Part shown: piece by piece, positions 23,172 to 27,190 of the stretch
Numbering within the stretch: position 1 is the first letter of the stretch
Layout of the letters: each line of letters starts with the position of its first letter
Notes under the pieces: model-generated
The model's input: only the letters and a program-made list of their open reading frames with translations
What the model was told of the DNA's origin: nothing
The model's database searches: none
Position numbers and translations under genes: made by a program
Source: Octopus sinensis
Taxonomy: Eukaryota
Reading direction: 5' to 3'
Assembly: GCF_006345805.1 (NCBI RefSeq)
Contig: NC_043007.1
Location: 7,316,001 to 7,380,000, forward strand
Length of the DNA: 64,000 nt

Positions 23172-23420
23172 TAGTGATGGTTTGTTGCCAACTTAACATG
23201 GCAGTCCCAGGAAAGGGAAGAATGCTACTGCTATTTAGCCCTTGGAAACACCGTTTCCAGTTGGTTATGTGACACAAGCGTTCTGTGTCCTTAAGTTTTC
23301 AAGCAGGGTAGATAAGCACCTCCACCCAGCAAAGACAGCATCCAGAGACTAGTTTCAGTCATTGCTCTTCATCAGTTTGGAGTAGCATGGTTTGCTAGCT
23401 GTCGATGCTTATGAGCCTTT
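23172..23420 (-). mobile_element. Penelope-like pLTR fragment (same family as 26623-27190)
   Basis: TGCCAACTTAACATGGCAG...TTTAGCCC...GACAC aligns by eye with 26637-26765, and it contains a hammerhead. Confidence 0.6.
23341..23381 (-). ncRNA. Minimal type I hammerhead ribozyme (weakened stem II)
   Basis: TCCAAA-CTGATGA-AGagcaatgaCT-GAAA-CTA-GTC-TCTGGA. Palindromic ACTAGT, and stem I extends via AGCAAA/TTTGCT. Confidence 0.7.
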
Positions 23421-23429
23421 GAAAACTTA

Positions 23430-23910
23430 TGGAATTTCGCCGAATGTTCTCACTGAAACGCTTCAAATCATCGCTGTAGAACTCTCGATTCGATCCTGGG
23501 GTCGAATACTCGATGCACTATAACGCGGATGTCGAAAAAATGGATGAGCATGTTCTTGATTGAGCTGTGACTCTGTCGTGCCTCTTGAAGCGTTGCACAC
23601 GAGCCTCTACCTCGTCGCCGTTAGCTTGCCGAACCATTCTGAATGCCTCTGTAGCAGACTTCCCAAGTTTAACGCAAAGTTTTACGTTGGCTTTGTTCCA
23701 ACTTCCTATCCATGACAAAAATTGCAGACTGCAGCATACAGGTGCTCACATAAACACAAATTTTACAACTAGCGAAGTAAACACAGCAACGTGACTCGGC
23801 ACACTGCCCCTATGAAGGTTGCTGCTAGCTCTCTTTGCGCACTCAACCGTGTGTTGCCCTCTGTTGGCGCGCTACAAAAGTAGTCCGGGAACTTTTTGAT
23901 ACCGTATCGC
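23430..23910 (-). mobile_element. Mariner 5' fragment (TIR plus HTH-coding region)
   Basis: ANVKLCVKLGKSATEAFRMVRQA is a mariner N-terminal HTH. The end reads, as reverse complement, GTATCAAAAAGTTCCCGGACTAC, typical of a mariner TIR. Confidence 0.8.
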
Positions 23911-24029
23911 ATGTTAATAACACCTAGGAGATGATTTTTCCGTTCGCCAAAGTAAATTGAGCTTTGGCAAAGAGGAGCTGATGTTAGCAGATGGTATCCA
24001 ACGCTCGTTGGGTGTGTCGACTCTGAACC

Positions 24030-24420
24030 GTAACATCCTCACGTTGGTGGGTCTGCAGAAGTGGCCAAGTCACTGCTCCTCATCTCCTCACAGCTCCCAG
24101 CTTAACTTCTTTCTCTTGCTCACAGCCACCCTTCTTTCTTTTGCTCCCATTCCATTGGCTGTAAGCATCCTCCGTGTCCACTGAGCAGAGAATCCCTTAC
24201 AGCCAACCTCGACTGGGAAAAGCCATGCCCCTCATCCTTTCTCCCTGCAATCCTGCAGAAAACTTTCATATTTGGCAAGCTTCCGTTCATGGGCCTCATC
24301 CACCCCCCTTCCCACGGGAATGTGAGCTCAATTGCTATCATTTTCTTGGTCGTTTCAGAAACAGAAGCACATCTGGCCTCAGGATTGTAAGGACGACCAG
24401 AGGAAGTTGAAACCTCTCCC
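24030..24420 (-). mobile_element. HERO/NeSL-like RLE non-LTR retrotransposon 3' fragment
   Basis: ETTKKMIAIELTFPWE, and in a shifted frame EVGCKGF, are RLE motifs. Confidence 0.65.
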
Positions 24421-26622
24421 CCTAGGCCCACTTTTAAACCCCAGGATTTGGCTTCATGCAGTAAGCTGTATGTCGTATTTGCCGACTTTACTGGTCTTTC
24501 TCGAACTTAATGGCAGCAATACGTAAAATATATTAAAACTATACAAGAATATGTGTCTGCGGGAGGAGTGAATTCGATTTCAAAATAGGCTGAACTGGAT
24601 TTTGTTGATGATGGAGACAGAAAGATTCTCAGACCAATAATATGAATGTTTATGTGTATAATGTACATACATACAGACATACATACGTGTGAGCGTGTGT
24701 TTAATTAAAAACCTTTCATTACATTTTTCTATAAACATTATATTTAAATTATACTTAACATTCGTACAAACTTCCAGATAATATATATATATATATGTAT
24801 GTGTGTATATATATATATATATATATATATATATATATATATATATATATATGTATATATGTTGTGTATATATATATATATATGTATATTTGTGTATATG
24901 TATATATATATATATATTATATATATAATATATATATATATATATGTATATTTGTGTATATGATATATATATATATAATATATATATATATTATATATAT
25001 ATATATATGTATATTTGTATACGTACATATATATATATATATATATATATATGATGGGGATTAAGTTACAATTGTAGTATACTTGAGAAATATATAAATT
25101 TTCTTATTACTCATTATGCTTATAAAAGAACAACATTATAAAGACTGTTTTCTCTTCTTATATGCAAAGTCGCACTTGGATTTCATGAAATTGGTATGAT
25201 TACTTCGCTTTATAATCTCGTATTTTTGAAGTAGTGAACTTGAGATGTAATTACACTTGAAAGAAAATCTTTGAGACAACACACTAAAACAACGTTACGT
25301 ATTTGACGAGGCTTAATTACGAAATTTGAGTAAATAATATTTCTCTTTATTTTCAACTAAAATACATGTGTGCGTTTGTTACTCACACACACACGAGCGC
25401 ACACATATATAGCGGAATATATATATATATATATATATATATGTGGGGGGGTATGTATGTAGGTGTATGTTCGTGTGTATATGTCTGTACGCGAGTTTGT
25501 GTCTATGTATGAATGTTTTGTGAATATATATTATATGCGTGTATATGTGTGTGTATGTGTGCATACATACGTACACACACACACGCACAAGTATGTGTGT
25601 GTGCGTGTGTGTCTAAACGTATCCGATCCGATACAAATATATATATATAATAGAGTATAAGAGTTTATACATGGGGAGGAAATCACCATGTGGATTCCTT
25701 ACATACTAGAAAGCGCTGTCAAAAGCCAAGCCACGAAAGATATATTCTTATATTGCATGTTGCTTGTAGGACATTTGAATGAGTAAAAATCTCAGTTAAG
25801 CCTCTACCCATGAGTTTCACCAATAATGATCAAATAAATCGAATTAATTAGCCAATCAATTGATTAATTAAGCATCTGTGGCTCGTCAGTAAGGTCAGTG
25901 GAAAAGGCATAGTTATGAAACTATAATATCCACCGAAAATACAAAGTATACACATGAGCACTTAGTTTCATCTTTATACATCAAGTATTCAAATCAAAAT
26001 CCCTTCAGTCAACGCACAGAGTCAAAGTAGTACAGCAGTGAATAAATTCACCCTATTTTTAAATATTTAAATATTTACTTATATAAATACAGGGTAATAA
26101 TTATTAAATTAATAATTAATACTCATAAGCATGCGTAATAAAAGTCAGAAGACTCTACGTAAGATCGATCTATAAATATAAATATCTTCATAACTGTACT
26201 TAAATATTCATCGTCTGAATGTTTCCATCTTTTACTTTCACTCGTTTGCCATGTAAACATATAGACATGTTTCGTATGTCAAACTCAAACTCTTAAATTT
26301 AATATACCTCATTTCTTTATCTGTATAATTGCCTTTATACCCGCTCAACTTGATTCCTCTAACAGCCATTCTTTATCCTGTGAAATCGATCCCCTGTAAA
26401 GACATCGGAGTCTATGTTTGAATCTTTTGAGCACGACCAAATGTCTTCTACGCTGAGGATTTCTGGATCTCATCTGTAGACTACGCACACACGCGCGCAC
26501 ACACACACACACACACACACGCACACACACACACAAATACACACATGCACACATATATATGTACGTATGTATATATATATGTATGTATTTATGTTTGTAT
26601 GTATATATATATATATATATAT

Positions 26623-27190
26623 GAAAATAATAGTTATCGCCATACTAATATGGCATTCTTATAAAAATAAGAATAAAGCTGTCCGCTTATTAGCTCCATG
26701 AGGCCATCGCCTTAAGTTAGCTATTTGATACACAAACTGTATCCATATAACCTTCGAACAAGGGAGGTCAGTCGCTCCACACTACTTGACCGGCAGCTAC
26801 AGACGCGTTTCGGGGTATTGCCCCTTTTCAATGCAGCGTAGCCAGACCAGTAGGTGTCGCTTCTGACAATCTCTGTTCGAAGGTTTTATTTACCTAGCTT
26901 CGGTGGAATACATCCACTTGTTTTCAATAATAGAAATATTAAAATTACTAAGTCTCTCTAAAAGAGAACAACGGCAGCGTTCCCGGAAAATATTGTTCGA
27001 AGGTTATATGGATACAGTTTGTGTATCAAATAGCTAACTTAAGGCGATGGCCTCATGGAGCTAATAAGCGGACAACTTTATTCTTATTTTTATAAGAATG
27101 CCATATTAGTATGGCGATAACTATTATTTTCCGGAAACGCTGCCGTTGTTCTCTTTTAGAGAGACTTTGTAATTTTAATATTTCTATTAT
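26623..27190 (-). mobile_element. Penelope-like pLTR element with interleaved inverted repeats A-X-B-A'-B' in (TA)n
   Basis: A at 26623-26761 is the reverse complement of 26993-27131. B at 26927-26992 is the reverse complement of 27125-27190. A hammerhead lies in X. Confidence 0.8.
26796..26837 (-). ncRNA. Minimal type I hammerhead ribozyme, U3-A8 core variant
   Basis: GCTGCA-TTGAAAA-GGGG caata CCCC-GAAA-CGC-GTC-TGTAGC. 6-bp stem I (one G-U) extending via TGGC/GCCG and CTACT/AGTAG, palindromic ACGCGT and GUC triplet. Confidence 0.8.

What the first reader, a model, noticed from the sequence alone, without database searches (positions are those of the whole stretch)
23341..26837. C3-G8 to U3-A8 compensatory swap in the catalytic core between two copies of the same family
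Seen: the homologous elements at 23172-23420 and 26623-27190 carry CUGAUGA and UUGAAAA cores respectively, and the element at 255 also has UUGAAAA. All three share a CAAU-containing loop II. Known: positions 3 and 8 form a Watson-Crick pair in the active hammerhead, and U3-A8 is a functional natural variant. Inference: the double change indicates selection for catalysis rather than decay, and strict CUGANGA searches would miss these copies.
Basis: partly seen in the sequence, partly recalled or inferred. Interest (0 to 1): 0.75.

Follow-up and report, generated by a model that had tools for sequence, protein, structure and literature searches.

The report
Retrozyme hammerheads swapping core through mismatches
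The two repeats are distant cousins in a group of small protein-free jumping elements whose predicted self-cutting RNA carries a known base-pair swap, and relatives elsewhere in the genome show that half-swapped, mismatched forms also multiplied, so the pair is likely favoured but not strictly required for spreading.

Summary
The three cores are real: CUGAUGA at 23375, UUGAAAA at 26831 and 290, all minus strand, with 0 such motifs in 30 shuffles. But they are not copies of one family. The two named elements are 59% identical sister families of ~350-363-nt non-LTR retrozymes. The old family is C3-G8 (26 of 32 copies, none U3-A8); the young one is U3-A8 (first 100 of 1,083). The element at 255 is a stub of a protein-coding Penelope-like element. 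U3-A8 is published, also in Penelope hammerheads. Genome-wide, 93% of 9,189 CAA-loop cores pair at 3-8 and stems co-vary (177 of 187 pairs), so the fold is likely selected. One family is 73% U3·G8. Another holds U3-A8, C3·A8 and C3-G8 subfamilies at 90-95% identity, with an amplified C3·A8 clade between the two paired states. The swap likely proceeds stepwise through tolerated mismatches. Cleavage is untested. This scan noted these families, and similar mismatch ideas, on other DNA of this genome.

The parts
23172..23430 (-). Family A retrozyme fragment (old, 5'-truncated, beside a TA run)
   Evidence: 2,501 first-look candidates; best other copies 87-90% identical over most of the query; direct repeat at 349-nt spacing in L047
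23341..23381 (-). Type I hammerhead motif, C3-G8 (C3 23375, G8 23370, C17 23347); this copy has a 2-nt stem II deletion and a stem I mismatch, likely inactive
26623..26992 (-). Family B retrozyme: one full, circularly permuted unit (370 nt; monomer 363 nt), 98.9% identical to a tandem-array unit
   Evidence: array units 363 nt apart at G000:C1:169359448-169362744
26796..26837 (-). Type I hammerhead motif, U3-A8 (U3 26831, A8 26826, C17 26802); 6-bp stem I, 4-bp G-C stem II, palindromic stem III; intact
26993..27190 (+). Inverted, 5'-truncated second copy of B (monomer positions 41-238), without ribozyme, ending at the second fixed 3' end (Penelope-type 'tail')
   Evidence: (arms 26623-26761/26993-27131, 99%)
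206..450 (-). Family C stub with inverted ends: pseudo-LTR end of a protein-coding Penelope-like element; U3-A8 hammerhead (U3 290, A8 285) with a damaged 16.1 position
   Evidence: Penelope-type ORF pieces in C loci L067 and L072; sister family C' flanks a 748-aa RT plus GIY-YIG ORF in L093

Best explanation
The two elements are sister families of ~350-363-nt protein-free repeats (non-LTR retrozymes) that carry a type I hammerhead motif predicted to cut itself as a dimer and that are likely copied by Penelope-type enzymes; their 3-8 core pair differs between families and likely changes one base at a time through mismatched forms that still spread. Shown: homology, tandem units, no ORF, fixed 3' ends, inverted truncated copies, co-varying stems, and amplified C3·A8 and U3·G8 subfamilies. 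Inferred: a tandem transcript is cut by two hammerheads paired through the palindromic stem III; the monomer circularises; a Penelope RT/endonuclease supplied in trans copies it into TA runs. Selection favours a Watson-Crick 3-8 pair but is soft, so a single-mismatch master can found a subfamily and a second change can restore pairing (U3-A8, C3·A8, C3-G8 in family E).
For: Stems of 17 hand-picked subfamily representatives pair in 177 of 187 cells (shuffle mean 119, 0 of 5,000 reach it); stem III is a palindrome in 17 of 17, with four different inner pairs. Genome counts: U3-A8 7,606, C3-G8 912, U3·G8 434, C3·A8 237, against 1,178 and 981 mismatches expected under independence. Family B: 42 of 43 internal 3' ends fall at monomer 175-179 or 237-239; 19 of 24 loci hold both orientations; 35 of 43 ends are followed by TA runs. 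Longest ATG ORF 38 aa; circular fold z = -6.4. Family E tree with positions 3 and 8 masked: C3·A8 clade 98/90 (13 copies, 10 loci, 5 contigs), C3-G8 clade 98/87, joined at 100/98; position 3 changes once; C3·A8 copies carry their own diagnostic bases and keep the U3-A8 state at three columns where C3-G8 copies differ. Contigs of two other runs match the C3·A8 core with no differences (records 10 and 19). Family F: 73 of the first 100 of 306 matches are U3·G8 (hand count). Family G: 12 of 48 are C3·A8 and are linked to a stem III state (Fisher p = 0.0005). In vitro, hammerhead-dead mutants of a lizard Penelope element still insert (PMC11167929).
Against: No cleavage, circular RNA or expression data; no run is on record as RNA. 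Rfam does not recognise the motifs. Core invariance is partly built into my patterns, copies are not independent events, and representatives were hand-picked. The root of family E is not fixed (AU p 0.18 and 0.20), and C3·A8 could come from CpG decay in a C3-G8 master (three steps instead of two). The G tree is poorly resolved, and U3-A8 and U3·G8 are not cleanly separated in the F tree. [quoted passage not shown] I found no autonomous Penelope element homologous to A or B, so the mobiliser is inferred.
Confidence: 0.68

Rival explanations
1. The hammerhead is a passenger: cleavage is no longer needed, and the stems persist because the RNA must fold for the Penelope enzyme.
For: Family F's most numerous branch has two core changes: all 33 sampled U3·G8 copies also have U17, against 3 of 18 U3-A8 copies. 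Mismatch clades amplified. Ribozyme mutants do not affect insertion in vitro and no RNA ends were seen at the cut site (PMC11167929).
Against: Stem III keeps a palindrome through four different sequences and stems I and II co-vary. Paired 3-8 states are 93% of matches. A return to a Watson-Crick pair in E needs a second specific change. U4, G5, A6, A9 and GAAA are shared by families only 52-64% identical, although this is partly by ascertainment.
Confidence: 0.15
2. The mismatched cores are themselves active ribozymes: a U·G wobble or a C·A pair is stabilised by the loop II-stem I contact, by dimer formation or by bound Penelope protein, so no fitness valley is crossed.
For: U3·G8 keeps G8 and can wobble; family F copies are young (94.7% mean identity) and keep all stems. 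A Penelope hammerhead was shown to be protein assisted. Natural core variants can keep some activity (PMC3088659 section 8).
Against: Single 3/8 mutants abolished cleavage in the lizard element (C3G, G8C) and were low in the mutational scan. Mismatch states are a minority genome-wide (671 of 9,189).
Confidence: 0.15
3. One reading: every spreading lineage has a Watson-Crick 3-8 pair, the swap occurs in one step, and mismatched copies are post-insertion decay or assembly noise.
For: In families A, B and C mismatches are rare and scattered (A: 6 of 32, of five kinds; C: 0 of 34). An A6G control gives 74 matches, so some mismatches are plain decay.
Against: U3·G8 is the majority state of F; C3·A8 copies of E form one clade with shared diagnostic bases at 10 loci and occur in tandem; other read sets hold the same core.
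Confidence: 0.05

Closest known systems
Metazoan non-LTR retrozymes (Cervera and de la Pena 2020, PMC7229834, parts 2-3 of 6 read; mussel units 350-390 bp, axolotl 330/350 bp)
   Same: Tandem non-coding units of 350-363 nt, one type I hammerhead per unit, short palindromic helix III, self-paired fold, co-occurrence with Penelope-like elements.
   Different: Several families here have U3-A8, U3·G8 or C3·A8 cores, which the parts read do not describe; circular RNA and cleavage are shown there and untested here.
Hammerheads in pseudo-LTRs of Penelope-like elements, with the U3-A8 variant of Schistosoma mansoni (Cervera and de la Pena 2014, PMC4209133, parts 1-2 of 4 read)
   Same: The same U3-A8 covariation, about 1,300 hits there with a dedicated descriptor; many families per genome; predicted dimers. 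Family C/C' here is this case directly.
   Different: A and B are protein-free tandem units with a 2-bp palindromic helix III and 4-bp helix II rather than minimal motifs; amplified single-mismatch subfamilies are not described in the parts read.
Natural hammerhead core variants (Perreault et al. 2011, PMC3088659, section 8 and passages read)
   Same: Reports C3-G8 covarying to U3-A8 in several natural hammerheads and cites earlier in vitro activity.
   Different: Isolated examples; no within-family series or intermediates in the section read.
Retrozymes as non-autonomous Penelope derivatives (Li, Clavereau and Pollet, bioRxiv 10.64898/2026.07.22.740005, part 1 of 5 and passages read); Poseidon element PAc (PMC11167929, abstract and main text read)
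   Same: Penelope-type mobilisation; two fixed RT start sites giving the 'tail'; AT-rich targets; inverted truncated copies (PMC8557442 passages).
   Different: No autonomous partner homologous to A or B was found here; the tail here is about 60 nt against 30-40 nt reported.

Membership tests
Type I hammerhead ribozyme | Core boxes N3-UGA-N-N8-A and GAAA, with NUH cleavage site | tested here: met
   Met at 26831 and 23375 (GUC); the 290 copy has C at 16.1 and fails, its family does not
Type I hammerhead ribozyme | Three helices with covariation | tested here: met
   177 of 187 stem cells paired over 17 representatives, up to four Watson-Crick types per position
Type I hammerhead ribozyme | Match to an Rfam hammerhead model | tested here: not met
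   No hammerhead hit; none among the 150 rows shown of 331
Type I hammerhead ribozyme | Self-cleavage | not testable with these tools
   Needs in vitro assay
Non-LTR retrozyme | Tandem units of 150-450 bp, each with a type I hammerhead | tested here: met
   B 363 nt, E 360 nt, F 357 nt, A 349 nt spacing
Non-LTR retrozyme | No protein coded | tested here: met
   Longest ATG ORF 38, 67 and 41 aa in B, E, F doubled monomers; family A not tested this way
Non-LTR retrozyme | Highly self-paired monomer | tested here: met
   Circular MFE z -6.4 (B), -3.8 (E), -3.1 (F); 58-62% paired
Non-LTR retrozyme | Accumulates as circular RNA | not testable with these tools
   Only assembled contigs of runs guessed to be RNA were available
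Non-LTR retrozyme | Target-site duplication; absence of LTR, PBS and PPT | not tested
   Flanks are mostly TA runs; not examined further
Autonomous Penelope-like element | ORF with RT and GIY-YIG endonuclease (families A and B) | tested here: not met
   No such ORF continuous with A or B in 60 loci of about 3 kb (Penelope-type ORFs in L001 and L025 were not shown to belong to B); B units are complete at 363 nt
Autonomous Penelope-like element | ORF with RT and GIY-YIG endonuclease (family C/C') | tested here: met
   L093:2673-4916, 748 aa: RVT_1 E 5.5e-8; GIY-YIG E 2.7e-4, 21.6 bits, just under the 22.6 cut-off. The Neptune label rests on a recalled cysteine-linker motif; no tree was built
Penelope-mobilised insertion | Two fixed 3' ends (tail), inverted truncated copy, AT-rich target | tested here: met
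   42 of 43 ends at two sites, 19 of 24 loci with both orientations, 35 of 43 ends at TA runs
One repeat family (80% identity rule, recalled) | A and B at least 80% identical | tested here: not met
   157 of 266 columns, 59%; separate 99/97 and 100/100 clades

The most novel reading that the evidence does not exclude
This genome records, copy by copy, a ribozyme active site crossing a compensatory valley several times: mismatched C3·A8 and U3·G8 masters kept retrotransposing, then regained a Watson-Crick pair (U3-A8 to C3·A8 to C3-G8 in family E; possibly a C3·A8 ancestor resolved to C3-G8 in A and to U3-A8 in B). Retrozyme spread would then need little or no cis cleavage, or a protein or dimer partner would rescue the mismatched cores.
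Probability: 0.45. Interest if true: 0.62.

Novelty: new member of a known kind. Interest (0 to 1): 0.4.

Why it matters
The swap itself is known, so the finding as written adds only another genome. What matters is the series around it. Whether Penelope elements and retrozymes need their hammerheads is open (PMC8557442 and PMC11167929, passages and main text). Family E offers three natural cores in 90-95% identical backgrounds, and family F a prolific wobble core, so cleavage rate can be set against copy number directly. It also shows that CUGANGA-only descriptors miss most CAA-loop hammerheads of this genome (7,606 U3-A8 against 912 C3-G8).

Tried and rejected
Rfam: no hammerhead hit; the microRNA hits are microsatellite noise. 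The generic repeat finder was swamped by microsatellites and gave only the inverted arms. Expression: no RNA holder listed; contigs of runs guessed to be RNA cover family B but cannot show strand, ends or circles. Same-family reading rejected (59%). Reading C as homologous to A and B outside the ribozyme rejected. First tree dropped 63 of 190 rows, including all of family E, by a similarity cut-off and subsampled the rest to 65 rows; E was then treated on its own. Direction of change in E is not fixed. A recombinant origin of C3·A8 (5' C3 from one subfamily, 3' A8 from another) was considered and is unlikely, because its downstream bases group with C3-G8 copies. The A6G control (74 matches) is only rough, as some rows look like unrelated repeats. 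G3-C8 and A3-U8 cores were not counted genome-wide. Four papers on 3-8 mutants and Penelope hammerhead variants (Przybilski and Hammann 2007; Lunse et al. 2016; Nelson and Uhlenbeck 2008; Martick and Scott 2006) could not be read, so a prior report of mismatch variants cannot be excluded; no supplements were opened. Paper searches that did not turn up amplified mismatch subfamilies: (listings only).

Full report
1. Observation. The window is G000:C11:7316001-7380000 in a 2.7-Gb genome rich in TA microsatellites; earlier scan notes call it octopus-like, which I did not verify. Three hammerhead-like motifs with a CAAU loop II lie on the minus strand: A (CUGAUGA, N3 23375), B (UUGAAAA, N3 26831) and C (UUGAAAA, N3 290). 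A descriptor finds 3 in the window and none in 30 shuffles. A and B are homologous over about 260 nt (z 12.5; downstream only z 11.2) but share only 157 of 266 columns. C shows no significant homology outside the motif. Rfam recognises none of them.

2. Three families, not one. A is old: best other copies are 87-90% identical over most of the query; 26 of 32 aligned cores are C3-G8, 0 are U3-A8 and 6 are scattered single changes. The window copy has lost 2 nt of stem II and one stem I pair. B is young: 1,083 exact matches to a pattern open at 3 and 8, the first 100 all U3-A8, many in 363-nt tandem arrays. The window insertion is one permuted 370-nt unit plus an inverted truncated copy without ribozyme. 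C is U3-A8 in 34 of 34 rows; the window copy has a damaged 16.1 position. C loci L067 and L072 hold Penelope-type ORF pieces, and sister family C' ends a 748-aa ORF with RT and a weak GIY-YIG match.

3. What the elements are. B, E and F monomers are 363, 360 and 357 nt, code nothing over 67 aa and fold better than shuffles; A repeats at 349 nt. Of 43 internal 3' ends in 24 B loci (6 duplicate listings of the 30 skipped), 42 fall at two sites about 60 nt apart, 35 are followed by TA runs, and 19 loci hold both orientations. This matches the Penelope tail, inverted copy and AT-rich target (PMC8557442 passages; PMC11167929 main text) and the size and layout of metazoan non-LTR retrozymes (PMC7229834 parts 2-3; bioRxiv 2026.07.22.740005 part 1 and passages). 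Dimer cleavage, circularisation and trans-mobilisation are inferred from those papers, not shown here.

4. Is the fold selected? For 17 hand-picked subfamily representatives, 177 of 187 stem cells pair (shuffle mean 119; 0 of 5,000), and stem III is a palindrome in all 17 with four inner pairs. The patterns did not require pairing, but they did require the core, so core invariance is partly ascertainment. With one CAA-loop pattern the genome holds 7,606 U3-A8, 912 C3-G8, 434 U3·G8 and 237 C3·A8 matches (reversed-pattern controls 24, 2, 7, 7); an A6G control gives 74. Paired states are 92.7%, odds ratio 67; copies are not independent, and long-stem-II hammerheads are not counted.

5. About 59 of the first 100 U3·G8 matches are one family, F (hand count). 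An open pattern gives F 306 matches, 73 U3·G8 and 27 U3-A8 among the first 100 (hand count). All 33 sampled U3·G8 copies also have U17, against 3 of 18 U3-A8 copies; U3-A8/C17 copies lie basal with moderate support, and four U3-A8 copies fall among the U3·G8 ones. Family E has 216 matches: 83 U3-A8, 10 C3-G8, 6 C3·A8 and 1 U3·G8 among the first 100 (hand count). I then fetched chosen loci of each state (66 cores). With positions 3 and 8 masked, 13 C3·A8 copies from 10 loci form one clade (98/90), sister to 10 C3-G8 copies from 7 loci (98/87), together 100/98 and drawn inside U3-A8. Identity is 97% within C3·A8, 94.6% to C3-G8 and 90% to U3-A8. Position 3 changes once on the tree, so C3·A8 is the most parsimonious state at the node between the two paired forms whatever the root; the root itself is open (AU p 0.18 and 0.20), and CpG decay of a C3-G8 master needs only one more step. 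Contigs from two other runs match the C3·A8 core exactly. Old family G has 32 U3-A8, 12 C3·A8, 3 U3·G8 and 1 C3-G8 of 48 (the C3-G8 row falls with A), with C3·A8 tied to one stem III state (p 0.0005). In the combined tree A and the B group are sisters (96/92) and their nearest outgroup is 3 C3·A8 and 1 U3-A8 copies, so the ancestor of the two window elements may have been mismatched; that tree is rough.

6. Mechanism. Most likely the hammerhead is kept for dimer self-cleavage, but with soft selection on the 3-8 pair: a mismatched master can still be copied, and a second change restores pairing. This fits in vitro data where single 3/8 mutants kill cleavage yet do not affect insertion. Rivals: the ribozyme is a passenger (0.15); mismatched cores are active in this context (0.15); strict pairing with mismatches as decay (0.05).

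7. Comparison and novelty. U3-A8 was reported in nature (PMC3088659 section 8) and in about 1,300 Penelope-type motifs of Schistosoma (PMC4209133 part 1). Its activity is context dependent: in a type III scan only G3-C8 rescued (PMC9901934 passages). Amplified mismatch subfamilies did not turn up in eight paper searches, but four key papers could not be read and no supplement was opened. Earlier notes of this scan describe U3-A8 retrozymes of this kind, the two end points, a U·G stepping stone and spreading with damaged cores on other DNA of this genome; a sequence look-up with the E C3·A8 unit and a word look-up found nothing.

8. Verdict. Real motifs, known swap, wrong family claim; new members of a known kind. 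The useful part is the natural series of paired and mismatched cores in near-identical backgrounds. Interest 0.40; most novel reading 0.45 likely, 0.62 if true.

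Noticed in passing
L092:1343-6693; L091:1580-6420; L236:1171-5285: A 4-5.4-kb insert interrupts tandem retrozyme units about 15-25 nt upstream of the hammerhead core in family B (L092) and family F (L091, L236). In L091 and L092 it codes AP-endonuclease and RT domains (LINE-like) and has a duplication of about 16-19 nt; L236 was not translated. Earlier scan notes report such a parasite.
   Followed up: partly
window 22884 (+), 14672 (-), 47177 (-): Three further C3-G8 hammerhead-like motifs with long stem II and palindromic stem III; likely ends of other Penelope-like families.
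   Followed up: no
window 23172-23340 and 26623-26795 (-): The region downstream of the ribozyme is the conserved part between A and B (z 11.2) and folds into several hairpins in B, ending at the first fixed 3' end; a candidate RT-binding and start structure.
   Followed up: partly
L093:2673-4916: Near-intact Penelope-like ORF (748 aa) between inverted C' hammerheads; C' is the commonest U3-A8 sequence in the first 100 listed and a candidate mobiliser.
   Followed up: partly
L140:688 and 842: Both arms of one inverted insertion in the U3-A8 B/D group carry C3·A8, so the mismatch was likely already in the template RNA.
   Followed up: no
L167-L170: Single U3·G8 hammerhead-like motifs with unrelated flanks and paired stem I; may be further families.
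   Followed up: no
window 23490-23760 (-): Sequence resembling a decayed mariner-type transposase fragment (resemblance by eye and recall, no call).
   Followed up: no
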